Positions 16,662 to 54,669 of a stretch of DNA of 64,000 nt are shown here, one piece after another. Source of the stretch: Patescibacteria group bacterium (GTDB taxonomy: Bacteria; Patescibacteriota; Gracilibacteria; UBA4473); assembly GCA_965660445.1 (NCBI GenBank), contig CBFIAK010000001.1, positions 160,001-224,000 of the forward strand, read 5' to 3'. Position numbers and translations under genes: made by a program. Below the pieces are notes generated by a model that was given only the letters and a program-made list of their open reading frames with translations, was not told where the DNA came from and did no database searches. Every line of letters starts with the position of its first letter. Position 1 is the first letter of the stretch.

Positions 16662-16986
16662 CGAGACCTGTCTCCACTTTATGTAAGTATAGATTGAAAA
16701 ATATATTTTTAAAACAGAAAACCGCATATTTAAGCCAAAAGTTGGAGACCGGTCTCCAACTTTCCGCATAAGAAAGGGAAAAAGAGTTTTTATTTTGAGC
16801 TGTTTTTCGAAAGGTTGTTTGTTTTTTTATGGGGTGCTTCAAAAAGTCCTCTTTTTTAAAACAGAGAAATCGCATAAATAAACCGCAAACAGGAGACCGG
16901 TCTCCTGTTTGTGCAGATATAGATTGAAATGTGTTTTTTGAAAACAAAAAACCGCATTTTTAAGCCAAAATTTGGAGACCGGTCTC
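16662..16986. repeat. REP-like cluster: two doublets of GAGACC(G/T)GTCTC palindromes
   Basis: Palindrome centres at 16668/9, 16750/1, 16898/9 and 16980/1. Each doublet is 82 bp apart with a similar linker (tatagattgaaa...accgcat.tttaagccaaaa). Confidence 0.9.
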
Positions 16987-24673: not shown

Positions 24674-25164
24674 GAGGCGCAGTGAAGTGAAAAAGGTTTT
24701 TCACTTCAGAATTATGAATTAAGAATTAGGAATTATGGGGGAAGAGCAGGAGCTACATGGAATCTTGAATCCAGAATCTAGAATCTAGAATAAATCACAG
24801 AAATCGCAGGAATCACAAGTCTTTGCAAAGCCTTATGATTGTTCCTTATTTCTCAAGCTGAATCTCAATCTTAATTCTTATAAAATAGAGACCGGTCTCC
24901 ATTTTTCGTAGATATAGACTGAAAAATAATAGAAGTTTTAGAGTTTGACATACAAAATCACATGTTTAAGCCAAAACTTAGAGACCGGTCTCCAAGTTTT
25001 GGCTTCACTGTGTGTTTTTTTGTTTTTTTAGAGTTATTGTATAACAATAAAATCTGGAATCTTGAATCTAGAATAAATCGCAGGAATCACAAAAAAATCA
25101 CAAGGATGTGCAAAGCCTTGTGATTTTCCCTTAATTCATAATTCCTAATTCATTATTCCAATTC
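24674..25164. repeat. Composite palindromic repeat mosaic between convergent genes
   Basis: Heptamer arrays (GAATCTA/GAATTAG), 30-bp hairpins at 24811-24840 and 25096-25125, GAGACCGGTCTC doublet (centres 24893/4, 24986/7). About 24720-25055 is the reverse complement of about 53220-53550. Confidence 0.9.
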
Positions 25165-26903: not shown

Positions 26904-26923
26904 CTCTCTTAAAACCTCCAGAA

Positions 26924-28433: not shown

Positions 28434-28442
28434 TCTTTCATT

Positions 28443-29282: not shown

Positions 29283-29318
29283 TATATTCCTTTATTTCTA
29301 TTTTAAATTCTATAATTC

Positions 29319-29597: not shown

Positions 29598-29627
29598 TTT
29601 TATTTTTTAAAAAACGGCTTATACAGC

Positions 29628-29960: not shown

Positions 29961-30613
29961 TGGGAAAAAAAGTATCACCGCATTCAATTCGTATAGGAAT
30001 AACTCGTGGATGGGATTCTATTTGGTTTGCAAAACGAGGATTTAAAGAAAAATTTCTTCAAGATATTGAAATTCGAAAAATGCTCGAAAAAAAGTTTGAG
30101 AAAGCAAAAGTAGCAAAAGTTGAAATCAAACGAGATGCAAAAAAAGCACGAGTTGTGATTCATTCTGGAAAACCAGGGCTTATTATTGGTCGGGGAGGAG
30201 AACAAATTCAAGAAATAGCAAAAGAACTTTCAGAAAAATATAATGATAAGTTTGATGTTTCCATTCAAGAAGTTCGAAAAGTTGACGGAAGTGCCCCACT
30301 TATTGCACAATCTATTGCGGATCAAGTTTCTCGACGGTTTCCATATCGACGAGTTGTAAAAATGGCTGTTGATAGAGCAAAGGAATCAGGAGTAAAAGGA
30401 ATAAAAGTTATTGTTTCTGGCCGATTAAATGGAGTTGATATTGCTCGAAAAGAAACCTATAACTACGGAAAAGTTCCACTTCACACACTTCGGGCAAATA
30501 TTGATTATTCAACAGCAGAAGCATCAACAATGTACGGAATTATAGGAGTAAAAGTTTGGGTGTATCATGGACTTGTGTTTAAAGAAAAAAGAGACGATCA
30601 ATTATTATTTTAA
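29960..30613 (+). CDS. rpsC: 30S ribosomal protein S3
   Basis: KPGLIIGRGG, SGRLNG, VPLHTLRANIDY, YGIIGVKVW. Confidence 0.98.
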   Translation: MGKKVSPHSIRIGITRGWDSIWFAKRGFKEKFLQDIEIRKMLEKKFEKAKVAKVEIKRDAKKARVVIHSGKPGLIIGRGGEQIQEIAKELSEKYNDKFDVSIQEVRKVDGSAPLIAQSIADQVSRRFPYRRVVKMAVDRAKESGVKGIKVIVSGRLNGVDIARKETYNYGKVPLHTLRANIDYSTAEASTMYGIIGVKVWVYHGLVFKEKRDDQLLF

Positions 30614-30616
30614 ATA

Positions 30617-30648
30617 AAAAAAAATCCCGAATATTCGGGATTTTTTTT
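30617..30648. terminator. Bidirectional terminator ending the truncated S10 operon
   Basis: Perfect inverted repeat A8-TCCCGAATATTCGGGA-T8 between convergent genes. Confidence 0.85.
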
Positions 30649-30674
30649 AACACAAATGAAATGATAATTATAAG

Positions 30675-31133
30675 CTATGCTGCTTTTTTAGCTTCTTTTG
30701 CTTTATTTGCTTTTCGATGAGCAGAATATGAAACAGCTCCTTTACCACCATCAACTACAACACCAACGGCACCACTGTGTTTATTATTTTTAGGGTTCTT
30801 TTTTCCAACAACCCCATGAGCAGTATGCAAAGCAGCTCCAGTTATATTTGTAGCAGCTCGTGATCCAGTTTCAGCAATAGATCCAACTACATTTTTTGTA
30901 AGGTTTACTCCCCCTTTAATAATAGGATGAGTAATACTTGGTGCTACTTTTAAAAGTGGAATCTTTTTGAGCACTTGATGCACTTTATCACTTACAAAAT
31001 CAACCGCTTTAAACGGAATATCTGTAACCGATCGAACACCTGAAGAAACCTTATCATGGATATCTACATTTTCTGCATTTTTATACAGATATCGGGTAGA
31101 TACCGATTGAGAAGAAAGAGAAATATTTTTCAT
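30675..31133 (-). CDS. Hypothetical small basic protein
   Basis: 152-aa ORF with upstream TTGACT...TATTAT and downstream terminator; Gly/Val/Ala/Lys-rich. Confidence 0.6.
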   Translation of the reverse strand: MKNISLSSQSVSTRYLYKNAENVDIHDKVSSGVRSVTDIPFKAVDFVSDKVHQVLKKIPLLKVAPSITHPIIKGGVNLTKNVVGSIAETGSRAATNITGAALHTAHGVVGKKNPKNNKHSGAVGVVVDGGKGAVSYSAHRKANKAKEAKKAA

Positions 31134-31201
31134 GAGAAAATGTTAAGATTAAATATTACAAATACATAATACAACAAAAAAAAACAAAAAGTCAATATAT
31201 T

Positions 31202-32047
31202 TTAAAGAACAATATTCATTTTTCCAACACTTTCTTGGGGTGAGTAATTTGATAATAGTATTTTAAAACATTCATCCACTAAATCATGGTCACCATTCTC
31301 AGCTCTTATGAAAGCATTTTTAGGGCATAAAAAAGGGATAGGGGGGTGTAGGGGTGATCGTGTAATAATCTCATCAGCTTGCTGAAAATGAATATCGTAA
31401 ATATGGGCGTTTGAAATAGAGATTGTCAAAAGTCCTACTGGAATATTTAATTTTTCTGCTAAAAAATAATTCAATAAAGCAAACCCTGCAACATCATGAG
31501 GGTTTCCAAGCATCATATCATTAGATCGAATAACAAGATGTAAACAAAGCCTTCCCCCAATAACTTGAACAGTAAATGTAAATGGACATGGAACATTTTT
31601 CTTTTTTGTTCCATTTGCAAGCCCATCATCAGAAGGATCCCACATTAAAATAACACCATGTCTTGATGATTGATCAGAAGAAAGAAGTTGCAAAAGTCCT
31701 TCTATTTGGTCTCTTTGAAAATGTTTTCTCCATCGATATCCATAAGCAGAAGAAACTATATTTCCTTTATCTGCAAAATCATCCCATATTTTTGTATATT
31801 GTTGTAAAAAATCTAATTCTCTTTTTCCTTGTAAAAACCAAACTTGCTCGGCAATAAATATTTTAAGAGGGATTTTACGAAGTGTTAAAAGAGGAAACCC
31901 TTTTTCTAAATCAAACTGCATATGAGCGCCTGCTATACTCTGACAGATATGTCCTGTTCTTTTATTTTTTTCTTGAAAACCTTCTTCTCGTATTTTTTTT
32001 AGAATTTCTTTATACTGAATATCGAACTCATTTATTAATTTTTTCAT
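31202..32047 (-). CDS. thyA: Thymidylate synthase family protein (atypical active site)
   Basis: RTG, GFPLLT, YGYRWR, catalytic PC (Cys154), RSND, AHIY. Confidence 0.88.
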   Translation of the reverse strand: MKKLINEFDIQYKEILKKIREEGFQEKNKRTGHICQSIAGAHMQFDLEKGFPLLTLRKIPLKIFIAEQVWFLQGKRELDFLQQYTKIWDDFADKGNIVSSAYGYRWRKHFQRDQIEGLLQLLSSDQSSRHGVILMWDPSDDGLANGTKKKNVPCPFTFTVQVIGGRLCLHLVIRSNDMMLGNPHDVAGFALLNYFLAEKLNIPVGLLTISISNAHIYDIHFQQADEIITRSPLHPPIPFLCPKNAFIRAENGDHDLVDECFKILLSNYSPQESVGKMNIVL

Positions 32048-32078
32048 TATAAATAAAGTGTAAGATATTTTTTTAAAA

Positions 32079-32339
32079 ATGACAAAACCAAACTCCCCCT
32101 ATTATACATTTACAGGTAAAGAAATATTATCAGATATTATGGATATAATCCCAGATGCATCTGAAATACTTCTTTCGCATGGTTTAGGATGTGCAGGGTG
32201 TCATTTTAATATGTTTGAAACTCTTGAAGAAGGGTTTCGTGGGCATGGATTTTCAGAAGAAGACCTTGAAAACGTATTAAATGATTTAAATGAAGCTGCA
32301 TATGATCTGCAAATACCCTTAAAAAAAGAGGAAAACTAA
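32079..32339 (+). CDS. DUF1858-like small CxxC redox protein
   Basis: GLGCAGC...ETLEEG..HG pattern. Confidence 0.75.
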   Translation: MTKPNSPYYTFTGKEILSDIMDIIPDASEILLSHGLGCAGCHFNMFETLEEGFRGHGFSEEDLENVLNDLNEAAYDLQIPLKKEEN

Positions 32340-32780
32340 AAAAAGAAGGAGTGTTTTAAGAAAGAAGATAAGAGAAAGAAAAAAGTAATACTCATTTCTT
32401 TCTTTTTTTTATATGTGTTTTTAAGGAGATATAGAAACAAAAAAACAAAAAAATAACAGATTCTTCTTTTCAAAAAGTTTTAAACATTTTTTCTTTGTTT
32501 TTAAGAGTATTTTTTTTAAAGACAAAAAACCTTTCTAAAAAAGATTTTAGTTGTATACATTTTTTTATAAATAAAAAGTATTCCTTTTTGCAAAAAAAAG
32601 AGAGAAAAAGCAAGTAAAATATAGTTTTTGTTTTTATAAAAAGGTTTCTTTGTTTTTAAACATATTTTTACTATTGTATTACTAATTATTTATATATATA
32701 TTTCTAAAAATAATACATATTATAGTTTTATATACGTAACAAAAAATATTTTCTTTCAAATATATATTTTTTTATTAAAA
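32340..32780. other. Extremely AT-rich non-coding region, candidate replication origin
   Basis: ORF-free and very low GC; coincides by eye with a C-rich to G-rich skew switch and with divergence of predominant gene orientation. Confidence 0.4.
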
Positions 32781-32783
32781 TAT

Positions 32784-32811
32784 TTGACTTTTTTTGTTTT
32801 ATTTATAGGAT
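32784..32811 (+). promoter_or_regulatory. rpoC promoter
   Basis: TTGACT-16 bp-TAGGAT. Confidence 0.55.
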
Positions 32812-32915
32812 TCTCAAGCTATATGAGAAATAGACATCTCTTCTTTCCGTATATTTCTTCTTAATAAAGGGCATTTTTATGTCTTTTTTCGAGTTTTTAT
32901 TCTTCTTTTTCATTC

Positions 32916-35900
32916 ATGGTACAAACAACAACTCCACATACTCAATCAGATACAGAATTTAATGCTATTGCAATATCAATTGCATCTCCTGAGGATATAT
33001 TACGTTGGTCAAATGGTGAAATAACAAAACCAGAGACAATAAACTACAGAACACAAAAACCAGAAAAGGATGGTCTTTTTTGTCAAAAGGTATTTGGTCC
33101 AGTTAAAAACTATGAATGTGGATGTGGAAAATACAAAAGAATTCGTTATCGAGGGATAACGTGTGAGGTTTGTGGTGTTGAAGTAACACGATCTATTGTT
33201 CGTCGGGAGCGAATGGGGCATGTAAAATTAGCAGTTCCTATTGCTCATACTTGGTTTTTACGATCTACTCCTTCTAAAATAGGTCTTCTTTTAGGTTTGG
33301 CAGTAAAAAAACTAGAACAAGTGGTTTATTTTGCTTCATATATTGTGGTTGATGTTGATGATGTGCAAAAAGAAGAGGAGTTGAAAAAATTAAATAAAGA
33401 ATATCAACAAGTTATAGAACGAGTGAAGGAGGAAAATAGTCAAAGTCTTCGAGCAGTTAAAAAAGCACTTAAAAATGGAGAAATGACAGAAGATCAAGTG
33501 CTTGAATTTGAACGATCACTTTTGGAAAAAGTTGAAGAAGTGAATCAGAATTTTGATATCGCAAAACGACAATTGAAAAGTATTATTCGTGGAGAAGTTT
33601 TAACAGAAACTGAGTATCGTGAAATTTCTTTAAAGTTTGGACATGTTTTTCGAGCTGGAATTGGTGCTGATGCTGTTCGTGAAATTCTTCAAAAAATAAA
33701 TCTTGAATCGTTTATTGAGGAAATGAAGGAGGATTACAAAGCTTCATCAGGACAAAAACAAAAAAAAATCGTAAAACGGATGCGATTAGCGGGTTCTTTT
33801 TTAAGAAGTAATATGAAACCAGAGTGGATGATTTTAACAGTTATTCCTGTTATTCCACCAGATTTACGTCCAATGGTTCAGCTTGATGGAGGACGGTTTG
33901 CTACTTCAGATTTAAATGATTTGTATCGACGAGTGATTAATAGAAATCAACGACTTAAAAAACTTATCCAATTAGGGGCACCTGAAATTATTTGTCGAAA
34001 TGAGAAAAGAATGCTTCAAGAAGCGGTTGATATTTTGATATCAAATCAAGTTCGAAATTCAAAAGCAGGAATGAATTATGTTCAAAAGAGAAAGTTAAAA
34101 TCTCTTTCTGATATGCTTAAAGGAAAACAAGGACGATTTCGTCAAAATCTTCTTGGGAAAAGGGTTGATTATTCAGGGCGTTCTGTGATTGTGGTTGGTC
34201 CTCAACTTCGATTACATGAATGTGGGCTTCCGAAATACATTATGATGGAACTTTTTAAACCATTTGTTATTTCTCGGCTTATTAAGTATGAACTTGTTTT
34301 TAATGTAAAAAGTGCAGAAAAAATGATTCGACTTGGAGAAAAAATTGTTTGGGATGTGTTAGAGGAAGTTATTAAAGGGAAGTGTGTACTTTTAAATCGT
34401 GCACCAACGCTTCACAGACTTGGTATTCAGGCTTTTTATCCTCGTATTGTTGAGGGAAAAGCTATTCAAGTGCATCCATTAGTTTGTCCAGCGTTTAATG
34501 CAGATTTTGATGGAGATCAAATGGCTGTTCATCTTCCTCTTTCGGAAGCAGCTCAAGATGAAGCTCGAAATATTATTCTTTCGTCAAAAAATATTTTAAA
34601 ACCATCAAGTGGGGATCCTGTTATTGATCCATCACAAGATATTGTGCTTGGGTGTTATTTTTTAACAGAAATAATGGATGGATTAAAAGGAGAAGGAAAT
34701 ATGTTTTTCTCTCTAGATGATGCTATTTATGCTTATAATGTTGGAAATATAGATTTAAAAGCAAAAATAAAAATCCGTATGAATGGAGAAATGCTAGAAA
34801 CATCAGTTGGTCGTGTTTTCTTTAATCAGATTTTACCGGAAGGTGTTGAGTTTCAAAACCAAGTGTTTAGAAAGAAATCATTGAGTAAGTTATTAGCTGA
34901 TATTTATACTCTTCATGGAACTGATCAAACAGCTATAGTTGCTGATGCTATTAAAGATATTGGGTTTAAGTATGCAACTATTTCAGGAGTTTCTATTTCT
35001 GCTTTTGATTTATATGGAGCAGAAGATAAAGAAAAAATGGTTGAAAAGGCAGATATTATTGTTGATCATATTAATAATCAGTTTCGACAAGGGCTTATTA
35101 CAAATGACGAACGCTATGAACACACTATTAAAATTTGGTCACGAGTAAAAAATGACGTGATGCAACAAATGGTGGGGCGGTATAAAAGTGGAAATGATAT
35201 CTTTACACAGGTGGATTCAGGGGCTCGAGGGAACTGGGGACAAATCACGCAACTTTCAGGAATGAAAGGGTTGGTATCAAGTCCATCAGGAAAAACAATT
35301 GAGTTACCTATTCGTTCGAACTTAAAAGAAGGATTTACTATTTTGGAATACTTTATTGCGACACATGGGGGACGAAAAGGAAAATCAGATACAGCGCTTA
35401 AAACAGCAGAGGCAGGGTATCTTACTCGACGATTGGTTGATTCCGTGCAAGATATCGTTGTTCGAGAAGAAGATTGTAAAACAGATAAATATCGTGTTAT
35501 TTCTCGGGTTCATTCGGCAAAACTAGGTATTCCGTTTGCAAAACGAATTTATGGTCGATTTTTGGCACAAGATGTTGTGGTTGATGGAAAGGTTGTTGTT
35601 ACAAAAGAAACACTTATTGATGATGCTATACTTCATGTAATAGAAGAGTCTCAGGTTGAATCAGTGGCTGTGTATTCGGTTATGTATTGTACAACGCTTG
35701 GGGGGATATGCCAAAAAACGTATGGATTTGATCTCAGTGCGAATAAAATAGTGAAAATGGGAACTCCTGTGGGGATTATGGCGGCTCAATCGATTGGAGA
35801 ACCTGGTACTCAGTTGACAATGCGTACATTCCACATGGGAGGTATTGCAACGGAGGGAGCGTCTATTACTCAAGGGCTTACGCGTGTAGAAGAAATATTT

Positions 35901-36740
35901 GAAGCACGATCTCCAGCTGCACCAGCTGTTGTTGCTGAAATTTCAGGGGTTGCGTCTGTGAAACGAGGAAAAAATGATACAAAAATTGTTATTGAGTCTC
36001 GTGCTGAAGAAGATGATGTATACGAACTTCGATATGCAATGGAACCAGTTGTTAAAGAAGGTGATGTGGTGAAAGAAAAACAAATTATTGCACGATCAAC
36101 AGAAAGTAAAGAAACAGTTAAATCGTTTTGTGCGGGAGTTGTGAAAAAAGCAGAAGATGATGTTATTATTATTCATCAAAACGAAAAACGACAAAAAACA
36201 TACAGTGTTTCAAATCGAACAACAATTCGAATAAAAGATGGAGATATGGTTAAGAAGGGATCAGCTCTTACGGCAGGGCATTTAGATCTTCGAGAGTTGA
36301 TGGATTTGGCTGGAGTTGATGTTGTTCAGGACTATGTTTTAAATGAAGTTTTGAATGTATATTCTTCTCAAGGACAAGATATTAATGAAAAACATATTGA
36401 GGTTATCGTGAAACAAATGTTTTCAAAGGTGCGAATTATTGATCCAGGAGATACTGATTTCTTACCAGGAGAAGTAAAAGACTATGTGGAGTGTTTGCAT
36501 ATAAATAATGGAGTTACTGATCCAAAGAAAAAAGTTCGATTTGAGCGACTTTTGTTAGGACTTACTCGTGTTTCTCTGTGGACTCAATCATGGCTTTCGG
36601 CGGCTTCTTTCCAAGAAACCACTCGAGTACTCGTTGATGCTGCTGTGTCTCGAAAGATAGATACACTTGACGGATTAAAAGAAAACGTTATCATCGGTCG
36701 GCTTATTCCTGCGGGAACTGGATATAAACACCAAAAATAA
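32916..36740 (+). CDS. rpoC: DNA-directed RNA polymerase beta' subunit
   Basis: KPETINYRT, zinc finger, [39 protein letters not shown]. Confidence 0.99.
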
Positions 36741-36793
36741 GCTCTAAAAATCATAAAAATACTTATTCTTACTTTTCATAAATATTTCATTTT

Positions 36794-37204
36794 ATGCCAA
36801 CAATTAACCAATTAATTCGAAAACCACGTACTGATAAGGTTAAAAAATCAAAAGCACCCGCTTTGAATTTTAAACTCAATAGTTTGAAAAACAAACAAAC
36901 GCTTTTATTTTCTCCTCAAAAACGAGGTGTTTGTATTAAAGTTTCGACAACAACACCAAAAAAACCAAACTCAGCATTGCGAAAAATAGCGCGTGTTCGA
37001 TTAACAAATGGGTATGAGGTAAATGCTTATATTATGGGAGAAGGACACAATCTTCAAGAGCACTCAGTTGTGCTTTTGCGAGGTGGGCGAGTGAAAGACT
37101 TGGTGGGGGTTCGGTATCACATTGTTCGAGGAGCTCTTGATACACAAGGAGTAACAAACCGAAAACAAGCACGTTCTCGATACGGAGCTAAAAAATCTAA
37201 ATAG
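36794..37204 (+). CDS. rpsL: 30S ribosomal protein S12
   Basis: [27 protein letters not shown]. Confidence 0.98.
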
Positions 37205-37227
37205 TGTCTTCTTTTCTTTAATTTCTT

Positions 37228-37716
37228 ATGACTACTGAAACAACGACAAAATCGGCAAAACCAAAAAAAACAACGGCAAAAAATCCGTTTTCTTATACAG
37301 ATCCGTTACAACAAAAATTTGTAAACTGTATTATGAAAGATGGGAAAAAAACAACAGCACAACGTATTTTAATGGATATGTTTGATGAGTTGTCACGTCG
37401 TGGTGAAAAAGATCCATTGAAAACATTTGAAACATCGTTATCAAACGTGACACCAACGATGGAAGTTCGTCCAAAACGTATTGGAGGGGCTGTGTATCAG
37501 ATTCCAGTAGAAGTTTCGTCTAAACGACAACAAACACTTTCTATTCGATGGATTTTACAATCAGCACGATCTAAAAAAGGACAACCTATGTATAAAGCAC
37601 TTGCTTCAGAAATTCTAGAAGCGTCTCAAGATTCTGGAAATGCAGTCAATAAGAAAAAAGAAGTGCATAAAATGGCACAAGCAAATAAAGCGTTTGCCCA
37701 TTTGGCTCGATATTAA
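37228..37716 (+). CDS. rpsG: 30S ribosomal protein S7
   Basis: MKDGKK, RIGGAVYQIP, HKMAQANKAFAH. Confidence 0.97.
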   Translation: MTTETTTKSAKPKKTTAKNPFSYTDPLQQKFVNCIMKDGKKTTAQRILMDMFDELSRRGEKDPLKTFETSLSNVTPTMEVRPKRIGGAVYQIPVEVSSKRQQTLSIRWILQSARSKKGQPMYKALASEILEASQDSGNAVNKKKEVHKMAQANKAFAHLARY

Positions 37717-37735
37717 ACAACAACAAGTAAATAAT

Positions 37736-37765
37736 AAAAAAACCTCGATTTTTCGAGGTTTTTTT
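37736..37765. terminator. Bidirectional terminator after rpsG
   Basis: A7-CCTCGA-loop-TCGAGG-T7 between convergent genes. Confidence 0.8.
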
Positions 37766-39521
37766 ATTCATACTCAACTAAGACTCGAAAGTTTTGGTCC
37801 ATCAGATCTATTGGGCGTCCGATATTCATGGTTTCTGCGGTAAATCTACCATCTTCGTTTGTTGATATGGTGTTGAAGAATGATGTTTTTTCTCGTCCGG
37901 AGGTGCCTTGCAATTGAAGAAAATAAGGACGAAAATCATAACTTCCTCTTTGGATACGGGTTTCGTATTCAAGAACAACCTCGCCTGTTTCATTTGGGCT
38001 TATAAAGAGTGGAATTTCAAATACATGAAAACCAGATATTTGTGTTTGATTTATTACTCCTGATGGGCTTTGACCGTTTAAAAAAAGTGTTTCTTTTGGG
38101 GTGAACACCCTGATAATTGTTCTGTTTTGCCCTCCTCCTAAAACCCATCGTAGTTCAGGGGTCAGAAGTGACTGAATGGTTGGATACCATGAATCATACC
38201 CCAGAAGATTTTCGAGTTCATTTGGTTGTATGGCATGAGTTCTGCGCAATCGTATTTTGTTTTTTACGGTTCCGTTTTTTTGTATATGACTATCGTGCTG
38301 TATCTTCGTCCAGACAAATTTTTCTGATTTATTAGCTCCAATATTTATAAAATCAAAATATAAAAAATTGTCTGCATTTGGGTTTTGTATGAGTCTGCCT
38401 GAAATTCCCAATGTATCATATTTTTTTTGGAGTTCTGGATTTTGCGCATAAAGCTGGATATGTTTTTTTTGAGTGAATGCGTTGAGGTTTATATTTTTTA
38501 TGAGTGCTTGAAGTGTTTGTGGTTCTTGTATGTGATTCCAAAGTGTTTTTGAAAGAAGTGCTATAGGGGCTCGAATATTAAATCGACCAGCAATACTTGA
38601 TCCTAGGAGAAATTGAAGCATGAGATCAATATTGTTGTGTGAAACTTCAATCCCCCATTCTTCAATAATAAATGGCTTGAGTGGTGCTATTATATCAGAG
38701 ACAATGTTTTGGTTGAGAGCGATGATATGGTTTGGTATTGGTTCACCAATAGACTCAAAAAATTTTTGGTACTGTTGAGCTGATGTTGGAAAATCGGGGA
38801 AGAAATTTGCATCCCGTAAAGATATATCTTTTGATAAATCATGAAAAAATTCAGGAGCCGGAATGAGTGATTCTTTCTGAATGAGCCTATCAAGTGCATA
38901 CATGTCTTCAAGTTTCCATTCTATATGCGTATCGGTAAAATCAATAATAACAAAACTTCCTACAAATCCACCAGTAGATCTGGGTTCGTTTGTGTTTTGA
39001 AGAAGTATAAGTATGCGTTCGTTATTTTTTTGTGCTTCGTGTTGTATATCAAGTATCGTTTGCAAAACAGTTATAAAAGGAGAAAGTGCTTGTACTCGAT
39101 TATCAAGGTTCTGTTTGAGTTCTTGGTATTGATAAGGAATAATGATCTGAGGGATGCGTTTGTGTTGGTTTTGCAGTGATATAAATGATGTTGTAAGGGT
39201 TTGTATATGGTGTATGACACGATTTAATTCTTCTTTTGGGAGTGTGTTATTTTCGATTATTATTTTTTCTTGTAGGAGTGTTTCTATGGTTTCCCCCACA
39301 GAAGCAAACTCAAACCCCATAGATCGAATAACACTCCATGGATAGAGAGGGGTTATTTTTTGTGATGTTTCTTTGATATTAGTCCATGACATATTCTTTA
39401 TGTCCTGAGTTTGAAACTGGTTTTTAAGCGTTTTAAGAAATGGTTGATTGTAGAGAAACAGACCACCTACCAAAACGGTTATAAAAATCAGTATAGAGAT
39501 TCCCCAAACGAGATATTTCAT
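37764..39521 (-). CDS. DUF4012-domain membrane-anchored protein
   Basis: N-terminal TM; LILLQNTNEPRSTGGFVGS, LRDANFFPDFPTSA, NIGANKS. Confidence 0.82.
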   Translation of the reverse strand: MKYLVWGISILIFITVLVGGLFLYNQPFLKTLKNQFQTQDIKNMSWTNIKETSQKITPLYPWSVIRSMGFEFASVGETIETLLQEKIIIENNTLPKEELNRVIHHIQTLTTSFISLQNQHKRIPQIIIPYQYQELKQNLDNRVQALSPFITVLQTILDIQHEAQKNNERILILLQNTNEPRSTGGFVGSFVIIDFTDTHIEWKLEDMYALDRLIQKESLIPAPEFFHDLSKDISLRDANFFPDFPTSAQQYQKFFESIGEPIPNHIIALNQNIVSDIIAPLKPFIIEEWGIEVSHNNIDLMLQFLLGSSIAGRFNIRAPIALLSKTLWNHIQEPQTLQALIKNINLNAFTQKKHIQLYAQNPELQKKYDTLGISGRLIQNPNADNFLYFDFINIGANKSEKFVWTKIQHDSHIQKNGTVKNKIRLRRTHAIQPNELENLLGYDSWYPTIQSLLTPELRWVLGGGQNRTIIRVFTPKETLFLNGQSPSGVINQTQISGFHVFEIPLFISPNETGEVVLEYETRIQRGSYDFRPYFLQLQGTSGREKTSFFNTISTNEDGRFTAETMNIGRPIDLMDQNFRVLVEYE

Positions 39522-40738
39522 GATATTGATTTTTCAAATATTCCACGCAAGACAATGAGAGGAAGAAATAAAAACGGAAACAGGAGCGAGTTTACAAAAA
39601 ATCCATGAACAAATAAAGCAGCTATGCCAGCAGAAAACCCTAAAAATTGATCATTTTTTTGTTTTTTATACCATTGGAGCGGATGAAAAAACAAAGCTCC
39701 AAAAAACCATAAAAACGGAATTATTCCGAGTATTCCTGTTGCTATAAGCACAGTAAGGTGAGTAGAATCAGATCCTCCGGACGAAAAATATGATTCATCG
39801 ACAATACCTTTTCGTGCTGCTTTGTATCGGTATGTATTATATCCAATACCTCCAATGGGGTTTTCTTTCCAAAGAGTGAGGCTTTGCGTCCAGCTTTCTA
39901 ATCGAAGCCCTGCGGTTGGATCTATCTCGGTGGTGCCATCAAAAACAAGTGAATAAGCAGTGCCTATGAGTTGAGAAACTCTTTCGCTTGCTCGTTTGTT
40001 TGAAGCAATTCCAATGCTTGTTACAAGAAGTCCTATGAGGATTATCTTGGGGTTTCGAAACAAGAAAAATATACCAAGTCCTGTTGCTGCTGCAAGGTAT
40101 CCGCTACGAGAATAGGTAAGAAAAAGAGCGCCAATAAAGAGGGCTATGATACCGGTGTAATACCATCGTTTTTTTGGGGTTTTGTACCATCCGCCGATAA
40201 GAATGGGCGTCATAAATGCAACAAACCCTGCTATAAAGTTTGGGTCAAGCCATGTTCCTAAGAGTCGTCCGATATGGGGATCTAATCCGCCTTCTGTAGA
40301 CCATGTGGATATATCGGGTACAAGAAAAAATTGAATGTATCCCAAAAGGATAACACAAAGAGAAATATATTCGATGCGAGTGAGTGCTTTTGTTTGTTCT
40401 TGTGGAGATGAAAACATTTCATACGCCGCCCACCCAAAGACAAGAAACGATGCAAACCGAACACTATAAGCACCAGAAAGAATTATTTCTTTGAGAGATT
40501 CTAGCTCAATAGATCCATACGTAAGACTCACAATTGCAATAGCAAGAAAAGTAAGTCCAGAAGGAAGGAAAAGAGGAAATGAGAACTTTTTTTGTTGTAT
40601 TATTTTGTTTCCAATCCAAAAAAATGTAAATACTGGTACAAGTATATCAGTGGCAAGTATTCCAGATCCGCCTATTGGTATGCGAATAAGAAGTCCGGGA
40701 ATAAGGAGAAACAAACAACTCCAAAAAAGTATTTTCAT
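39518..40738 (-). CDS. O-antigen ligase/Wzy-like membrane protein
   Basis: Multi-TM; RLLGTWLDPN, LTYSRSG, R..W...PIGGIG, HGFF.NSL. Confidence 0.85.
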   Translation of the reverse strand: MKILFWSCLFLLIPGLLIRIPIGGSGILATDILVPVFTFFWIGNKIIQQKKFSFPLFLPSGLTFLAIAIVSLTYGSIELESLKEIILSGAYSVRFASFLVFGWAAYEMFSSPQEQTKALTRIEYISLCVILLGYIQFFLVPDISTWSTEGGLDPHIGRLLGTWLDPNFIAGFVAFMTPILIGGWYKTPKKRWYYTGIIALFIGALFLTYSRSGYLAAATGLGIFFLFRNPKIILIGLLVTSIGIASNKRASERVSQLIGTAYSLVFDGTTEIDPTAGLRLESWTQSLTLWKENPIGGIGYNTYRYKAARKGIVDESYFSSGGSDSTHLTVLIATGILGIIPFLWFFGALFFHPLQWYKKQKNDQFLGFSAGIAALFVHGFFVNSLLFPFLFLPLIVLRGIFEKSIS

Positions 40739-50230: not shown

Positions 50231-50746
50231 ATGAGATTTTTCTGTCTTTTTTTAGGGCTTTTTTGCACAGAGTTTGTGTTAGCTGATGAGTGCGAGGTTC
50301 GCACAGCGGAATTGTTAAAAATGGAGCATGACACTGTTGTTATACAACGGAAAAAAGAATGGTCTGTGGTAAACCAGATTGTTTTTAATCGAGTGCTTCA
50401 TACTCACGAAGAGGATTTGGACTATATTATCTGTAGTGAGTCGATTATTATTCGTCGAAACATTATGCCTTTTGGGAACCTTTTGGTTCGTCAAGTGGGG
50501 TATAAGATGCAATATATATTTTCAATGCCTGACGATGGAGGGCATTGGTTTTATTTTGAAATCGATGTCTTCTCTGATGCTATTTTGCGCGATTATCAAG
50601 AAAAGAGGGAAAATGATGTTTACATGGCAACACAAGACAACATAAACATCTTTTTTTCTAGAGATTTTCCTCATGATTTATTTTACGGATCTTTTTTGAA
50701 TGATACGTCGGCTTCGGTTGATCGTGTCTTTAAACATTTCCGTTAA
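50231..50746 (+). CDS. Hypothetical secreted protein
   Basis: 171-aa ORF with signal-peptide-like N-terminus, followed by a terminator. Confidence 0.6.
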   Translation: MRFFCLFLGLFCTEFVLADECEVRTAELLKMEHDTVVIQRKKEWSVVNQIVFNRVLHTHEEDLDYIICSESIIIRRNIMPFGNLLVRQVGYKMQYIFSMPDDGGHWFYFEIDVFSDAILRDYQEKRENDVYMATQDNINIFFSRDFPHDLFYGSFLNDTSASVDRVFKHFR

Positions 50747-50752
50747 ACTTAT

Positions 50753-50784
50753 AAGCTTTGGTTGAAAAAACCAAAGCTTTTTTT
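50753..50784 (+). terminator. Rho-independent terminator
   Basis: AAGCTTTGGTT-loop-AACCAAAGCTT followed by a T-tract. Confidence 0.7.
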
Positions 50785-50817
50785 ATGAGTTTTTATAGAG
50801 TAAATGGCGGACGAAAT

Positions 50818-50831
50818 GGAGACCGGTCTCC
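50818..50831. repeat. Solitary REP-like palindrome
   Basis: GGAGACCGGTCTCC in the intergenic space between convergent genes. Confidence 0.8.
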
Positions 50832-50905
50832 TGTTTTGGGATAATAAAAAAACCATTTTCTCATTTATTTCAGAATATTGAAAGCGTGAGAAAATGGTTT
50901 CGGTG

Positions 50906-51388
50906 TTATTCAATAAGTTTTCGGGCTTCCTCTCTATTAATTATTGTTATTGGAAGTTGTTTAAATTCAATAACCTTGTTATGGTTATTTTTATCATGAA
51001 CATAATACAACTTCCTTCTGCCTATAAGAAATTGACAATATTGAATAAGAAATTCGTTAGAGGGATTTTCGATGTCTGTGTGAGAGACTCCAAATAAATC
51101 ACCTAAAACTGGATCACCATAAAATACAAATTTCCAGAAAGATTCTGTTTCTTGCAAAACAATAAAGAGTTCATCTTTGTGTATGTTTTTCATTATATTT
51201 CGAATGTCTTGAGGGGAAAGATCCCCCCATCCTATTTTATAACCTTTTTTGTTGTACCAGCTTGTGTTTTGAATGAATTTTTGAGAGCGTGTTTGACTCG
51301 TTATAAGTCCAAAGTGATAAGGCTTCCCGTCTCGATTATAAAAAGCGCCCTTTTCAAGGCGAATATTTTGGAGTATGTGCAGACTCAT
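50906..51388 (-). CDS. Hypothetical protein
   Basis: 160-aa ORF with globular composition (WYNKKGYKIGWGDLS); family not recognised. Confidence 0.65.
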   Translation of the reverse strand: MSLHILQNIRLEKGAFYNRDGKPYHFGLITSQTRSQKFIQNTSWYNKKGYKIGWGDLSPQDIRNIMKNIHKDELFIVLQETESFWKFVFYGDPVLGDLFGVSHTDIENPSNEFLIQYCQFLIGRRKLYYVHDKNNHNKVIEFKQLPITIINREEARKLIE

Positions 51389-51594
51389 AGATTTCTGAAT
51401 CCTTTATATTGTTAATGAAGAATGATGATGTGTTCATTCTTAAAAATAAAAGAAATAAACACGAGTATCTAACGAAATAAAAAAGAACCCCAATAATGTA
51501 AACACTATTGCATTAGCTCTTATATTATAAAAAAAGTAGTGCGTCAACAAAAAAGCCTGTTTCCGAGAAAGAAATTGGGCTTTTAATTGTGTTC

Positions 51595-51679
51595 TGGTGG
51601 GCAGGACAGGATTCGAACCTGTGAAGGCTAAGCCGGCAGATTTACAGTCTGCTGCGTTTGACCGCTCCGCAACCTACCC
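51595..51679 (-). tRNA. tRNA-Tyr (GTA)
   Basis: Minus strand GGGTAGG...GCAGACTGTAAATCTGC...GGTTCGAATCC...CCTGCCCACCA; long variable arm, encoded CCA. Confidence 0.96.
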
Positions 51680-51870
51680 TTTTGTGGTAAAAAGCTACAG
51701 AAGTCTAATTTTCTTCTCAAAAAAGTCAAGCAAGAGAAGTATTGTGATTTTTTTGAAAACGATACATTCGTATTCCTTTATAAGGACGCTAGTGATTTCT
51801 TTGAATAATCACTATTTTATGCATAAATCGAGAAAATTTAGTTTTTTTGCAAGAGGGTGAGAATCTCTTT

Positions 51871-51898
51871 TTGACCTTTCTCTAAAAAATTATATGAT
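51871..51898 (+). promoter_or_regulatory. Promoter of the RAYT gene (near-leaderless)
   Basis: TTGACC-16 bp-TATGAT, 8 nt before the ATG. Confidence 0.55.
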
Positions 51899-51906
51899 TT
51901 TTATGT

Positions 51907-52503
51907 ATGGGATATAGATCTGTTCCTTTTCAAACAAATACGTACTACCATATTTATAATAGGGGGTGGAATAAGCAGCGTGTTTTTTTTGATAAAAATG
52001 ATTATAATCATTTTTTTGATCTTATTACGAAATATAGAAAAAAAGAACAATTTCAGAACATTGTTTTTATAGCATATTGTTTTTTACCAAACCATTTTCA
52101 TTTCATTCTTAAGGAAGAAGTAAAAACGAATGAATCTGTTGAGAACAAAGAAATTTTGCATTCAGGAGAAGAAACAAAAAATATATCTGAATTTATGCGA
52201 TATTTATTGGTTTCGTATGCAATGTATTTCAATAAACGGCATGGAGAAGAAGTAAAACCTGAAAAAAAAGCACCTGTATTTGAAGGAAGATTTCAGTCTC
52301 GTATTATTGGCCATGAAGATTATCTGAACTATGTGCATACCTATGTCGAGTATAACGCTATAAAGCACGGGCTAGTAGAACGACCAGAAGACTGGCCGTA
52401 TTCAAGTTTTCAGTTTCGGAAACACCAAACAGAAACAGATGAATTATTTCAGGATATCCTTGATAAAATGAACAGAGATGTTTTTGATCCAGGATTCATA
52501 TAG
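51907..52503 (+). mobile_element. REP-associated tyrosine transposase (RAYT/TnpA-REP; Y1 HUH family)
   Basis: YYHIYNRG, AYCFLPNHFHF (HUH), VFEGRF, YVEYNAIKHGLV-x-PEDWPYSS (catalytic Tyr region); no tnpB; palindromic repeats start 42 bp downstream. Confidence 0.9.
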
Positions 52504-52544
52504 GTAACTTGACTTCTCTTTTTGAAGATGTGTTATTTTATTAC

Positions 52545-53630
52545 AATGGAGACCGGTCTCCATTATGTGTAGATATAGATTCAAAAAAATATTCTAAAAA
52601 AACAAAACCGCATATTTAAGTCAAAAGTTGGAGACCGGTCTCCAACTTATTGGGATTCAGGTTGAGAAATAAGGAACAATCATAAGGCTGTGCACAGTCT
52701 TGTGATTTTTGTGATTCCTGCGATTTATTCTAGATTCTAGATTCTGGGTTCAGGATTCCATGTAGCTCCTGCGCTTCCCCATAATTCATGATTCTTGCTT
52801 TATAATTCTGAAGTGAGAAAAACTTTCTCACTTTACTGCACTTCCTCTGTCTTTCTGTTTGTCATTTTTTGACCACCAAAAAAGAACGAAAAAAGGTGGG
52901 CGACGGTTCTCTATACATGGGAATGAAATGATTCATCAGTGGGAAGCTCTGAACTCCAATTTTTTCATAAATTTAGAATCACAAAAGAAGAGAAAAATTG
53001 TCAGACAGCAGAGCTTCATTATTCCACTGCTTTCATCAATCATTCGCATGTCTTTCGAAAGTCGCGAAAAAAGGAACAGATTAGAATACGGAATCTTGAA
53101 TCTAGAATCTTGTTTCCATCACAAAAATCACAAGGCTTTGCAAATCCTTGTGATTCCTGCGCTTCTTGCGATTTTACCAAGATTCAAGATTCCAGATTCT
53201 AGATTCTCATTTAGATTCTAGATTCTATTATTATACAATAACTCTAAAAAAACAAAAAATATTATAGCAAAGCCAAAAGTTGGAGACCGGTCTCCAACTT
53301 TTGGCTTAAATATGGGTTTTTGTGTGTCAAACTCTCAAGTTTCCATTATTTTTCAGTCTATACCTACGAAAAATGGAGACCGGTCTCCATTTTATAAGAA
53401 TTAAGATTGAGATTTAGATTGAGAAATAAGGAACAATTATAAGGCTGTGCACAGTCTTGTGATTCCTGTGCTTCCTGCGATTTATTCGAGATTCCAGATT
53501 CTAGATTCAGGATTCCATGTAGCTCTTGCTCTTCCCCATAATTCCTAATTCATGATTCATACTTCACTATTACTATACAGTAACCCAAAAAAACACACAG
53601 TAAGACCAAGAATACGAGACCTGTCTCGGG
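52545..53630. repeat. RAYT-adjacent mosaic of palindromes, hairpins and heptamer arrays
   Basis: GAGACC(G/T)GTCTC centres at 52554/5, 52636/7, 53288/9 (38-bp perfect palindrome 53270-53307), 53381/2 and 53621/2; 30-bp hairpins at 52678, 53126 and 53435; (T/A)AGATTC arrays. Confidence 0.92.
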
Positions 53631-53637
53631 GGGGGCT

Positions 53638-54669
53638 TTATCGTTTTATTTTTTCTTCGATATCACCAATACTCGCTTGTCCGCATTGGGCCCCAAATTT
53701 TTGAATCACAAACCCTGAGCTCCAAGCTCCCCATAACAGTTGTTCATCAACGGGTTTTTCTAAAAGAAGGGATGTGAGTATTCCAACCGAAAACGCGTCT
53801 CCTGCCCCAAGGGTGCTTTCTATCGGTACGTCAGGAGCGCATACGAAAAAATGGTTTCCATCATTATCAAAAAGTTGTGCTCCTCTATTGCTATCAGTAA
53901 TCACCACTTTTCCAACTCCCGCATCAAGGAATTTTTGAGCAATCGAACGCATATCAAAAACATGCTCAGGAATGAAAGGAGGATTTATAGATATGTTTTT
54001 TCCACATATCGATTCATCCAAGTCTTTAAACGAAACTTTTTCAGCTGTTTGTTGTGTAAAATATTCACTCTCTTCTTTATTGAGTATTAGCACATCAATT
54101 ACCGGAAATACTTTTTTAAAATGATCAAATCCGTATTGAAACTGAGTTTTTCCTGGGTTCCACCCAATAAGACTTTTCAGGTTGTTTGTCTTCCATTGCG
54201 GAAGCGCTAACAAAAAATCATCAGATTTATCTGTAAGATGTCCTATATAAAGAGATCTCGTCGATGGAGCATTGAACAGATGCGATGGATTAAAATCTTC
54301 TTTTGGGTTTTTGTAATTCAGAACGCTTCGGTGTCCGTCTTGAGCGTTTAAAATAACCGATAAACTCGATTCGCTTTTTTGAGAAATAGTAATGTGAGAG
54401 GTGTCAACCCCTTCTCTGCCGAGCATGTGTCGGATAGTATGCCCTACCGTGTCATCACCCAAAAACCCAAAAGTCGCCGTGCGCATACCAAACTTTAAAA
54501 ACCCAACACTTGCATTTGCCGATGACCCCCCACAAGATTGAGAAATTTTTTGTAACAATATTTTTTCTCCTACCGGAATGATAAAGTTTTCATTCGTTTC
54601 AAGCGGTGTTTGAGGTGTTACAAACACATCAAGTGTAATGGATCCGAAAGTGAGTACATCGTATGTCAT
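53638..54669 (-). CDS. PfkB/ribokinase-family carbohydrate kinase
   Basis: GSITLD, GGSSAN, WNPG, LNKEE, STLGAGDAF. Start ATG 54669 lies 6 nt after TTGACT-17-TATAAT (54676-54704). Confidence 0.9.
   Translation of the reverse strand: MTYDVLTFGSITLDVFVTPQTPLETNENFIIPVGEKILLQKISQSCGGSSANASVGFLKFGMRTATFGFLGDDTVGHTIRHMLGREGVDTSHITISQKSESSLSVILNAQDGHRSVLNYKNPKEDFNPSHLFNAPSTRSLYIGHLTDKSDDFLLALPQWKTNNLKSLIGWNPGKTQFQYGFDHFKKVFPVIDVLILNKEESEYFTQQTAEKVSFKDLDESICGKNISINPPFIPEHVFDMRSIAQKFLDAGVGKVVITDSNRGAQLFDNDGNHFFVCAPDVPIESTLGAGDAFSVGILTSLLLEKPVDEQLLWGAWSSGFVIQKFGAQCGQASIGDIEEKIKR

What the first reader, a model, noticed from the sequence alone, without database searches (positions are those of the whole stretch)
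51907..53630. RAYT-like HUH transposase with its own family of loopless palindromes spread as fixed-geometry doublets
Seen: an intact Y1/HUH transposase gene without tnpB, followed by GGAGACC|GGTCTCC palindromes. I count 12 copies of GAGACC(G/T)GTCTC in the window (cores near 16663, 16745, 16893, 16975, 24888, 24981, 50819, 52549, 52631, 53283, 53376, 53616), all intergenic. Ten form five doublets with constant centre-to-centre spacing (82 bp three times, 93 bp twice) and a shared linker (tatagaYt...tttaagYcaaaa). Outer arms differ between copies yet stay self-complementary (AAAGTT/AACTTT, CAAACA/TGTTTG, AAGCCAAAAGTT/AACTTTTGGCTT). Known: RAYT/TnpA-REP enzymes bind and cut ssDNA REP hairpins, and REP doublets (REPIN/BIME) are the mobile unit in Gammaproteobacteria. 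Inference: a REPIN-like system in a reduced CPR genome, with an unusual zero-loop palindrome and no canonical GTAG at the foot of the stem.
Basis: partly seen in the sequence, partly recalled or inferred. Interest (0 to 1): 0.85.

Follow-up and report, generated by a model that had tools for sequence, protein, structure and literature searches.

The report
RAYT-like nuclease with private palindrome repeats
A small marine bacterium of the candidate phyla radiation carries one domesticated-transposase gene (RAYT type) next to its own family of about 33 short palindromic repeats, an ordinary kind of system that does not seem to have been described in this group.

Summary
All 12 GAGACCNGTCTC sites, the five doublets (82 bp three times, 93 bp twice) and the shared linker are at the stated coordinates. 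The genome has 34 such sites; one looks like a chance match. The gene at 51907-52503 is an intact, single-copy Y1/HUH nuclease, closer to E. coli TnpA-REP than to IS200 transposases by profile, fold and tree. No TnpB was found.

The RAYT-REP reading is supported mainly by comparison. Orthologues in related genera sit next to different palindromes, and these are multi-copy in four genomes. In two genomes they are inserted in frame inside the gene. A complete relative without the gene has no such family.

There are four caveats:
- Eight of 11 doublets are inner parts of a larger composite repeat.
- That composite carries a second palindrome family of 38 copies.
- Three orthologues have only a single palindrome beside them.
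- One relative has palindromes but no detected gene.

Mobility itself is inferred, not shown. Zero-loop palindromes without GTAG also occur beside homologues in other phyla. I rate this a new member of a known kind.

The parts
51907..52503 (+). RAYT-like Y1/HUH nuclease gene, 198 aa, single copy in the genome
   Evidence: ORF. Pfam Y1_Tnp 29.2 bits. NCBIfam REP_Tyr_transpos 58.4 bits, below the cut-off of 80. tblastn and a family search each find one copy. Profile hit to PDB 4ER8 at E 5.6e-11. The AF2 model's top Foldseek hit is 4ER8.
51871..51898 (+). Promoter-like site (TTGACC-16-TATGAT, 10 of 12) just upstream of the start codon
   Evidence: Consensus scan. This is a pattern match only. The region as a whole has no more such sites than its shuffles.
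52549..52642 (+). 82-bp doublet (P1 then P2) with unique flanks, starting 46 nt after the stop codon
   Evidence: Folds as ssDNA at -19 kcal/mol, z -4.6.
53283..53387 (-). 93-bp doublet (P2 at 53283, P1 at 53376), the inner part of a composite repeat
   Evidence: ssDNA fold -30.1 kcal/mol, z -8.3.
50819..50830 (.). Single palindrome 1.1 kb upstream of the gene, just after a separate terminator-like hairpin (50753-50779)
53616..53627 (.). Degenerate single palindrome (GAGACCTGTCTC), 11 nt from the end of the pfkB-like gene
16663..16756 (+). 82-bp doublet with unique flanks, about 100 nt after the tmRNA gene
16893..16986 (+). Second 82-bp doublet of the same cluster
24888..24992 (+). 93-bp doublet inside a composite repeat (about 24672-25167)
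52649..52808 (+). T module: heptad repeats plus the second palindrome family H (52680-52705)
   Evidence: Direct repeat D1/D2. H sites. Heptads.
53080..53230 (+). T module (H palindrome at 53128-53153, AGATTCT heptads at 53180-53227)
53406..53565 (+). T module, 88% identical to 52649-52808
   Evidence: D1.

Best explanation
This is a REP/RAYT ('REPtron'-like) system. A resident, single-copy Y1/HUH nuclease of the TnpA-REP/RAYT class is paired with its cognate, genome-specific palindromic repeat. The repeat core is TGGAGACCGGTCTCCA. There are about 33 copies, occurring singly or as P1-linker-P2 doublets of 82 or 93 bp.

The likely mechanism, inferred from the solved E. coli enzyme, has three steps. 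The palindrome folds into a hairpin when the DNA is single-stranded. The nuclease binds the hairpin. It then cuts and rejoins nearby DNA through its tyrosine, so that copies spread, exchange parts and are lost in non-coding DNA, mostly behind gene ends.

Shown here:
- the gene is intact;
- its family placement is nearer TnpA-REP than IS200;
- it is single copy;
- the repeats sit next to it and are over-represented;
- the same pairing, with different palindromes, occurs in related genera;
- the composite repeats are mosaic, with breakpoints at the palindrome cores.

Inferred, not shown: binding, cleavage, and that this enzyme rather than recombination moves the repeats.
For: PROTEIN
- The only NCBIfam hit is REP_Tyr_transpos, for the query and for 32 of 32 aligned homologues.
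- A profile of the 32 hits E. coli TnpA-REP (4ER8) at E 5.6e-11, against ISDra2 TnpA at E 0.03.
- The model (pLDDT 83.9) has 4ER8 as its top Foldseek hit: E 6e-8, TM 0.70 by target. IS608 and ISDra2 TnpA follow at TM 0.53-0.64.
- In a tree, 11 IS200 transposases from the same phylum sit on one side of a branch with SH-aLRT 99. The query, its homologues and E. coli RayT sit on the other.
- The IS200 model gives no match in this genome.

COPY NUMBER AND INHERITANCE
- There is one copy in G000.
- There is one match in each of G001, G004, G014, G015, G016, G017 and G024.
- In five relatives (G015, G016, G001, G019, G024) and on G017's short contig the gene lies directly upstream of a RecF-like gene. 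In G015, G016, G001, G019 and G004 a second conserved gene lies on its other side.

REPEATS IN G000
- There are 29 perfect and 5 variant sites. They lie almost entirely outside ORFs, although about 92% of the genome is covered by ORFs.
- The P1 16-mer is the most frequent 16-mer in the genome, with 19 occurrences. It flanks only 18 of 809 ORFs of 100 aa or more, and the RAYT gene is one of them.

COMPARISON WITH OTHER GENOMES
- The 14-mer core occurs in 1 of 41 genomes, G000 only.
- A 24-nt degenerate pattern has 0 hits in two public collections.
- GAGTTCGAACTC flanks the orthologue in G024 (22 copies) and G017 (14 copies).
- ACCCGGGWTCTAGAWCCCGGGT flanks it in G004 (6 copies) and G001 (4 copies).
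- In G017 and G019 the palindromes are inserted in frame inside the orthologue. This includes the variable stretch between the HuH and Tyr motifs, the published hallmark of tnpAREP subclass 2.4 (PMC6006769, passages read).
- G013, a complete 1.02-Mb relative without the gene, has no GC-rich palindrome family.
- Two more distant CPR genomes have 8 and 5 copies of their own palindrome, clustered on the gene.

STRUCTURE AND EXCHANGE
- The five doublets folded as ssDNA give z-scores of -3.3 to -8.3.
- Five single sites are the composite repeat lacking exactly the 93 bp between the two cores.
- Identity of the inner 81 nt is uncorrelated with identity of the flanks (r -0.04 and 0.28). One pair is 98% identical inside and 81-84% outside.
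Against: - The protein scores 58.4 bits, below the NCBIfam equivalog cut-off of 80.
- There is no GT[AG]G foot. The residues aligned with E. coli W94 and Q95, reported to read GTAG, are F and E here (PMC6006769).
- The Tyr motif reads Y---NA, not the class-2 signature Y---NP.
- The palindromes beside the orthologues in G015, G016 and G014 are single copy. The whole G015 contig has only a 4-copy AAGTTCGAACTT.
- G018 has 10 + 4 palindromes but no gene was found with the profile. It is 95% complete, in 120 contigs.
- Eight of 11 doublets are inside a larger composite repeat. Its other module (the H family, 38 copies) is as abundant and as genome-specific, so the enzyme's true substrate could be H, or neither.
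- All 30 family sites on C1 lie in two stretches, 144-288 kb and 802-815 kb. They are not dispersed like classical REPs.
- Copies are 72-98% identical, so spread is mostly not recent.
- In G000 the upstream palindrome is 1.1 kb away, beyond a tRNA gene and an ORF, so the gene is not tightly bracketed.
- No filled and empty site pair could be compared, and there is no expression evidence.
Confidence: 0.7

Rival explanations
1. The palindromes are one module of a composite intergenic repeat: heptad repeats, the H hairpin, then the doublet. This repeat spreads and is reshuffled by homologous recombination, slippage or an unidentified agent. On this reading the nuclease gene merely lies in a repeat-rich region and does not act on the palindromes.
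For: - Eight of 11 doublets are embedded in a composite of 350-440 nt.
- The T/H module occurs at many places without any P site.
- All 30 family sites on C1 lie in two stretches, which looks like regional spread.
- Single and double forms differ by a deletion between two identical 14-16 bp cores, which slippage alone could produce.
Against: - The same gene-palindrome pairing recurs with unrelated palindromes in G024, G017, G004 and G001, and in two more distant CPR genomes.
- Palindromes are inserted inside the orthologous genes themselves.
- Three doublets stand free with unique flanks, one of them directly behind the gene.
- The H pattern was not found in any of the 40 relatives searched, including those with orthologues.
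Confidence: 0.17
2. The palindromes exist chiefly as functional RNA or DNA signals, such as transcription terminators, mRNA-end stabilisers or protein binding sites. They are alike because of selection on that function.
For: - No locus lies between divergent genes. I count 6 convergent and 7 tandem contexts (my tally).
- P1 is an A-tract, GC stem, T-tract arrangement.
- Two of the 6 P sites in 50400-54000 are flagged terminator-like.
Against: - Four of those 6 sites are not followed by a T-run.
- The site at 50819 sits right after an independent, better terminator (50753-50779).
- Ordinary terminators do not share a 16-nt core or fixed 82/93-bp pairs with a conserved linker.
- About 33 sites cannot serve the roughly 800 ORFs of this genome.
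- A secondary role of this kind is known for REPs and does not exclude the best explanation.
Confidence: 0.08
3. The gene with its flanking hairpins is an autonomous IS200-type insertion sequence, and the doublets are its deleted, non-autonomous derivatives (PATE-like).
For: - The Y1 fold is shared with IS200/IS605 TnpA.
- In G024 palindromes lie on both sides of the gene within about 630 bp.
- A doublet can be read as a left end plus a right end.
Against: - The gene is single copy in G000 and in seven relatives.
- It holds a conserved position beside a RecF-like gene across genera.
- The IS200 model does not match.
- The tree separates it from IS200 genes of the same phylum, several of which are multi-copy in their genomes.
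- The motif is Y---N, not Y---Q (PMC6006769).
Confidence: 0.05

Closest known systems
E. coli RayT/TnpA-REP with REP and BIME elements (PDB 4ER8; REPtron)
   Same: - A single-copy Y1/HUH nuclease with private palindromic repeats beside it and spread through non-coding DNA behind genes.
- Two repeat subtypes (P1 and P2, like Y and Z) paired at fixed distances with conserved linkers, like BIME classes.
- Best sequence-profile and fold match.
   Different: - Only 18% identity in the structural alignment.
- Below the NCBIfam equivalog cut-off.
- No GTAG foot, and the residues aligned with W94/Q95 differ.
- The palindromes are perfect with no unpaired centre.
- About 33 copies rather than hundreds, clustered in two regions.
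tnpAREP subclass 2.4 / RAYT Group 4 (Quentin et al. 2018, PMC6006769; Bertels et al. 2017, PMC5581495)
   Same: - The NH[IFV]H form of the HuH motif and a length near 194 aa.
- A variable insertion between the HuH and Tyr motifs, with REP sequences inserted in frame in the gene (seen here in G017 and G019).
- Long symmetric 'double foot' REPs.
- A scattered distribution including Cyanobacteria, Bacteroidota and Chloroflexota among the homologues.
- Modest flanking 16-mer counts: 19 here, against the published 14 for Group 4.
   Different: - The W motif is FE/FQ rather than WQ, and the Tyr motif is Y---NA rather than YIxNNP.
- No reference sequences of the subclass were available. The assignment rests on published motifs and features, not on a tree.
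REPINs of Pseudomonas fluorescens (Bertels and Rainey 2011, PMC3116915)
   Same: Doublets of a short palindrome with a fixed spacer that can fold into one long hairpin. The minimum-energy fold pairs P1 with P2 in 2 of 5 doublets.
   Different: Each half is itself a perfect palindrome, so 'inverted orientation' has no meaning here. Most doublets are embedded in a bigger repeat. Replication as a unit is not shown.
IS200/IS605 TnpA and PATE elements
   Same: The same fold and the same logic of recognising hairpins in single-stranded DNA.
   Different: Not multi-copy, no TnpB, no match to the IS200 model, and a separate side of the tree.

Membership tests
RAYT / TnpA-REP (class 2 TnpA-Y1) | Y1 HUH fold with an HuH motif and a catalytic tyrosine | tested here: met
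   H63-F-H65, Y139 and Y146 lie in columns invariant across 32 homologues. Pfam Y1_Tnp is above its cut-off. The model's top hit is 4ER8.
RAYT / TnpA-REP (class 2 TnpA-Y1) | Tyr motif Y---NP (class 2) rather than Y---Q (IS200), as given in PMC6006769 | tested here: inconclusive
   The query reads Y146-VEY-N150-A. The N is invariant in 32 of 32 sequences. By my count from the alignment the P is present in 9 of 32. There is no Q at that place.
RAYT / TnpA-REP (class 2 TnpA-Y1) | One copy per genome, inherited vertically | tested here: met
   One copy in G000. One match in each of seven family relatives. The position beside a RecF-like gene is conserved in relatives. In G000 that synteny is broken: one former neighbour lies 8 kb away and the other 268 kb away.
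RAYT / TnpA-REP (class 2 TnpA-Y1) | Flanked by palindromic repeats that are over-represented in extragenic DNA | tested here: met
   The flanking 16-mer is the most frequent in the genome. This is matched in G024, G017, G004 and G001. It is not met in G015, G016 and G014, where the palindrome is single copy.
RAYT / TnpA-REP (class 2 TnpA-Y1) | Score above the NCBIfam equivalog cut-off (NF047646, 80 bits) | tested here: not met
   58.4 bits. It is the only family matched, but the protein is not an equivalog of the proteobacterial enzyme.
RAYT / TnpA-REP (class 2 TnpA-Y1) | Binds and cleaves its REP hairpin in single-stranded DNA | not testable with these tools
   Needs purified protein and oligonucleotides.
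Canonical REP | 5' GT[AG]G tetranucleotide at the foot of an imperfect hairpin | tested here: not met
   The feet read AATG (P1) and GTTG (P2), symmetric on both sides. The palindromes are perfect through the centre.
REPIN | Two REPs in inverted orientation that replicate as one unit | tested here: inconclusive
   There are 11 doublets with fixed spacing. Only 3 have unique flanks. The inner segment has its own history relative to the flanks. No insertion event was observed.
IS200/IS605 insertion sequence | Multi-copy, often with tnpB, matching the IS200 transposase model | tested here: not met

The most novel reading that the evidence does not exclude
The palindrome centres are the actual exchange points of the enzyme. 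On this reading the 81-nt inner segment (P1 right arm, linker, P2 left arm) is a cassette that is cut out of, and pasted into, the centre of existing palindromes. Single and double forms would then interconvert by a precise 93-bp step, and inner and outer parts would have unlinked histories. If so, this would be a very small, natural 'palindrome-into-palindrome' single-strand recombination system. It would also be the first worked example of a REP/RAYT pair that has expanded in an ultra-small CPR genome. Such pairs seem common there but mostly at low copy: by record title, 34 of the 80 best homologous loci are from CPR lineages.
Probability: 0.25. Interest if true: 0.65.

Novelty: new member of a known kind. 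Interest (0 to 1): 0.45.

Why it matters
REP/RAYT systems have been studied almost only in Proteobacteria with large genomes. Published surveys report that tnpAREP-like genes favour larger genomes (PMC6006769, passage read). Here a 0.99-Mb genome, about 92% covered by ORFs, keeps such a gene and about 33 cognate palindromes, plus a second repeat family.

Relatives show the whole range of states: no gene and no repeats, a gene with a single palindrome, a gene with dozens, and palindromes inserted in frame in the gene. That gives a compact natural series for asking what these domesticated nucleases do for or to their hosts.

The system also offers a short, symmetric, easily synthesised substrate for biochemistry. 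In addition, the repeats explain why the Logan contigs of the one public run that holds this locus break here.

Tried and rejected
RESTRICTION-SITE IDEA. The core contains GGTCTC. The hexamer is not avoided in the genome: 113 and 131 occurrences, against about 113 expected from base composition (my arithmetic). I dropped this idea.

KNOWN RNA FAMILIES. Rfam gives only the tRNA and tmRNA at gathering thresholds, and only sub-threshold chance hits at E up to 1 in 50700-53700.

REPLICATION-STRAND BIAS. By my tally, elements point 15:4 to the + strand. They do so on both sides of the GC-skew minimum near C1:180-200 kb. No lagging- or leading-strand rule follows from this.

CLOSE RELATIVES FOR FILLED AND EMPTY SITES. 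None is available. There is no genome of the same genus among the 40 relatives. The 24-nt pattern has 0 hits in genome contigs and in metagenome contigs, although the own genome may be left out of those scans.

SEQUENCING RUNS. One DNA holder was found, kept as contigs, and no RNA holder is listed. The laid contigs break inside the repeats, and the 'joints' are cross-matches between repeat copies. This gives no evidence on excision or polymorphism.

BROADER LOCUS SCAN.

COMPENSATORY CHANGE. Only one arm position shows a two-sided change (G..C against C..G in P2 arms). This may be a single event and I give it little weight.

Supplementary files of the papers could not be opened. The subclass reference sequences and REP tables of PMC6006769 and PMC5581495 are there and might settle the subclass assignment.
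- Passages read through 'find': PMC5581495 and PMC6006769, including Table 1.
- Search listing and abstract start only: PMC3116915, PMC3337134, PMC3479197, PMC8266576.
- The statement that no paper describes RAYT/REP in CPR rests on two searches. They returned only incidental co-occurrences.
Full report
WHAT IS THERE. The window is C1:160001-224000 of a 991,330-bp, five-contig assembly with 36.7% G+C. The genome reads well under the standard code: ORFs of 150 codons or more cover 92% of C1. None was found in any of 100 shuffles. The five doublets have the stated spacings.

Genome-wide, the looser pattern GAGACNNGTCTC gives 34 sites, 29 of them the perfect GAGACCGGTCTC. One variant (C1:744121) lies inside a 154-aa ORF and has no arm complementarity, so I treat it as chance. 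In a crude ORF calling, 26 of the 34 sites lie outside any ORF of 60 aa or more. Seven lie in short ORFs made of repeat sequence.

Grouping the sites into loci, I count 6 between convergent genes, 7 between tandem genes and none between divergent genes (my tally). All 30 family sites on C1 lie in two stretches, 144-288 kb and 802-815 kb. The remaining four are at the ends of contigs C2 and C4.

ANATOMY OF THE REPEATS. There are 11 complete doublets, plus one cut by a contig end. Each has a short-armed palindrome, P1 (AAAATG-core-CATTTT). Each also has a long-armed one, P2 (AAGCCAAAAGTTG-core-CAACTTTTGGCTT). An oriented linker joins them.

Three doublets have 82-bp spacing and unique flanks. 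Two lie just after the tmRNA gene, and one starts 46 nt after the stop codon of the nuclease gene. The other eight have 93-bp spacing and are the inner part of a composite repeat of 350-440 nt.

The composite's outer 'T' modules contain AGATTCT-type heptads. They also contain a second palindrome family, H (TCACAAGG-N10-CCTTGTGA). H has 38 copies at up to one mismatch in this genome and none in 40 relatives. About half of the H copies lie far from any P site.

Five single P sites (C1:246390, 273728, 802908; C2:140357; C4:8450) are the same composite lacking exactly the 93 bp between the two cores. Their arms are hybrid (P1 left, P2 right) and not self-complementary.

Among the eight composites, identity of the inner 81 nt is not correlated with identity of the flanks (r -0.04 and 0.28). 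For example, 803318 and 815333 are 98% identical inside and 81-84% outside. The palindrome cores therefore behave as breakpoints between exchangeable modules.

As single-stranded DNA, the five doublets tested fold far better than shuffles (z -3.3 to -8.3). They fold either as two hairpins or with P1 paired to P2.

THE PROTEIN. The gene at 51907-52503 encodes 198 aa. It matches Pfam Y1_Tnp and, as its only NCBIfam hit, REP_Tyr_transpos. That score is 58.4 bits, below the cut-off of 80. The closest homologues that carry a source name are labelled Candidatus Gracilibacteria.

In an alignment of 32 homologues, the HuH histidines, Y139, Y146 and N150 are invariant. All 32 match only REP_Tyr_transpos. 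The profile hits E. coli TnpA-REP (4ER8) over its full length at E 5.6e-11, and ISDra2 TnpA only at E 0.03.

An AlphaFold model (pLDDT 83.9) has 4ER8 as its top Foldseek hit (E 6e-8, TM 0.70 by target). IS608 and ISDra2 transposases follow.

The gene is single copy by tblastn and by family search. No TnpB domain was found. The IS200 model does not match in this genome, although it is over its cut-off in 18 of 201 sampled genomes of the phylum, several with multiple copies.

In a quick maximum-likelihood tree, 11 such IS200 proteins lie on one side of a long branch (SH-aLRT 99). The query, its homologues and E. coli RayT lie on the other. The E. coli branch is long, so its exact place is unsure.

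By the published motif table (PMC6006769, Table 1, read), the protein has the class-2 type of Tyr motif, with A in place of P. It has the NHFH form of HuH and an 'SS' tail motif. The residues aligned with the GTAG-reading W94/Q95 of the E. coli enzyme are F and E. This fits the absence of a GT[AG]G foot.

COMPARATIVE TEST. The protein has matches in 18 of 41 genomes searched, including 11 of 24 relatives of the same family. The orthologues at 40-51% identity are single matches per genome.

In five relatives (G015, G016, G001, G019, G024) and on G017's short contig the gene lies directly upstream of a RecF-like gene. In G015, G016, G001, G019 and G004 a second conserved gene lies on its other side. 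It is therefore a resident gene, not a wandering insertion sequence. In G000 this neighbourhood is broken up.

Every orthologue has a GC-rich palindrome beside it, different from genus to genus. These palindromes are multi-copy in four genomes:
- GAGTTCGAACTC: 22 copies in G024 and 14 in G017.
- ACCCGGGWTCTAGAWCCCGGGT: 6 copies in G004 and 4 in G001.
In each case several copies lie beside the gene.

In G017 the palindrome is inserted in frame twice inside the gene: once between the HuH and Tyr motifs and once near the C-terminus. In G019 a perfect copy lies about 45 nt before the start codon. Many degenerate copies fill the variable region and the tail. In-frame insertion of this kind is the reported hallmark of tnpAREP subclass 2.4 (PMC6006769).

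Results against a simple rule:
- The palindromes beside the genes of G015, G016 and G014 are single copy.
- The whole G015 contig has only a 4-copy AAGTTCGAACTT.
- G018 has 10 + 4 palindromes but no gene was found even with the profile. It is 95% complete, in 120 contigs.

G013, a complete single-contig relative without the gene, has no GC-rich palindrome family. Only one distinct 16-mer there reaches 8 copies, against 138 in G000.

Further afield, the 80 best loci from a species-level genome collection include 34 that by record title are CPR lineages. The rest include Chloroflexota, Cyanobacteria, Bacteroidota and others. In 51 of the 80, a GC-containing hairpin lies within 500 nt of the gene. 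In 29, its stem recurs within the locus. Several of these are zero-loop palindromes. Three CPR genomes checked in full have 8, 5 and 1 copies.

INTERPRETATION. The best reading is a REP/RAYT pair: the nuclease recognises the folded palindrome in single-stranded DNA and cuts and rejoins there. Two findings fit that activity: the mosaic structure with breakpoints at the cores, and the precise single/double forms. Both can also be produced by recombination or slippage between identical cores.

A role of the hairpins at transcript ends is possible and is not exclusive. Only 2 of the 6 P sites in 50400-54000 look like terminators.

Which of the two palindrome families is the enzyme's substrate is not settled. 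P is the one next to the gene and the one with analogues in relatives.

NOVELTY. RAYT genes are routinely annotated in CPR genomes (source names). Atypical and symmetric REPs are described for related subclasses. I found no paper that treats REP/RAYT systems in CPR. I therefore rate this a new member of a known kind. Its points of interest are the small genome, the expanded repeat family and the informative series of relatives.

Noticed in passing
window 52680-52705, 53128-53153 and about 36 other places in the genome: A second genome-specific palindrome family, H (TCACAAGG-N10-CCTTGTGA, centre partly palindromic around TGCA). It has 38 copies at up to 1 mismatch in G000 and none in 40 relatives. 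It often sits 73-75 nt from a P site but also occurs far from any. Some copies are followed by a T-run and look like terminators.
   Followed up: partly
window 52830-53110: A third repeat of about 280 nt, 94.7% identical to C1:793864-794144 (opposite strand). It is also present at the end of contig C4 (8488-8564). No Rfam match was found, and an ORF of 120 aa overlaps it. Its nature is unknown.
   Followed up: no
window 52727-52745, 53091-53112, 53180-53227, 53484-53517 and many T modules: Short tandem arrays of a 7-nt unit (AGATTCT / GAATCTT and variants) flank the H palindromes. 16-mers from these arrays are among the most frequent in the genome, at 12-16 copies.
   Followed up: partly
C1 about 180-200 kb (window about 20000-40000): The cumulative GC skew of contig C1 has its minimum here and its maximum near 640 kb. 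A replication origin may therefore lie inside the window, 10-30 kb from the nuclease gene. dnaA itself is at C1:509 kb.
   Followed up: partly
window 16141-16558 and 51595-51679: A tmRNA gene is directly followed by two P doublets. A tRNA-Tyr gene lies on the opposite strand 228 nt upstream of the nuclease gene.
   Followed up: no
L011 (G004:C25:46675-47163): The orthologue in G004 has one in-frame TGA. This means either a broken gene or a relative that reads TGA as sense, as some Gracilibacteria do. G000 itself uses TGA as a stop.
   Followed up: no
L010 (G017) and L013 (G019): REP palindromes are translated as part of the nuclease itself. In G017 this gives SSNSSSNL twice. In G019 it gives repeated PGF / NPGS stretches, for a 302-aa protein.
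   Followed up: yes
window 50906-51388 (-) and 50231-50746 (+): Two ORFs of 160 and 171 aa beside the locus have no Pfam match.
   Followed up: no
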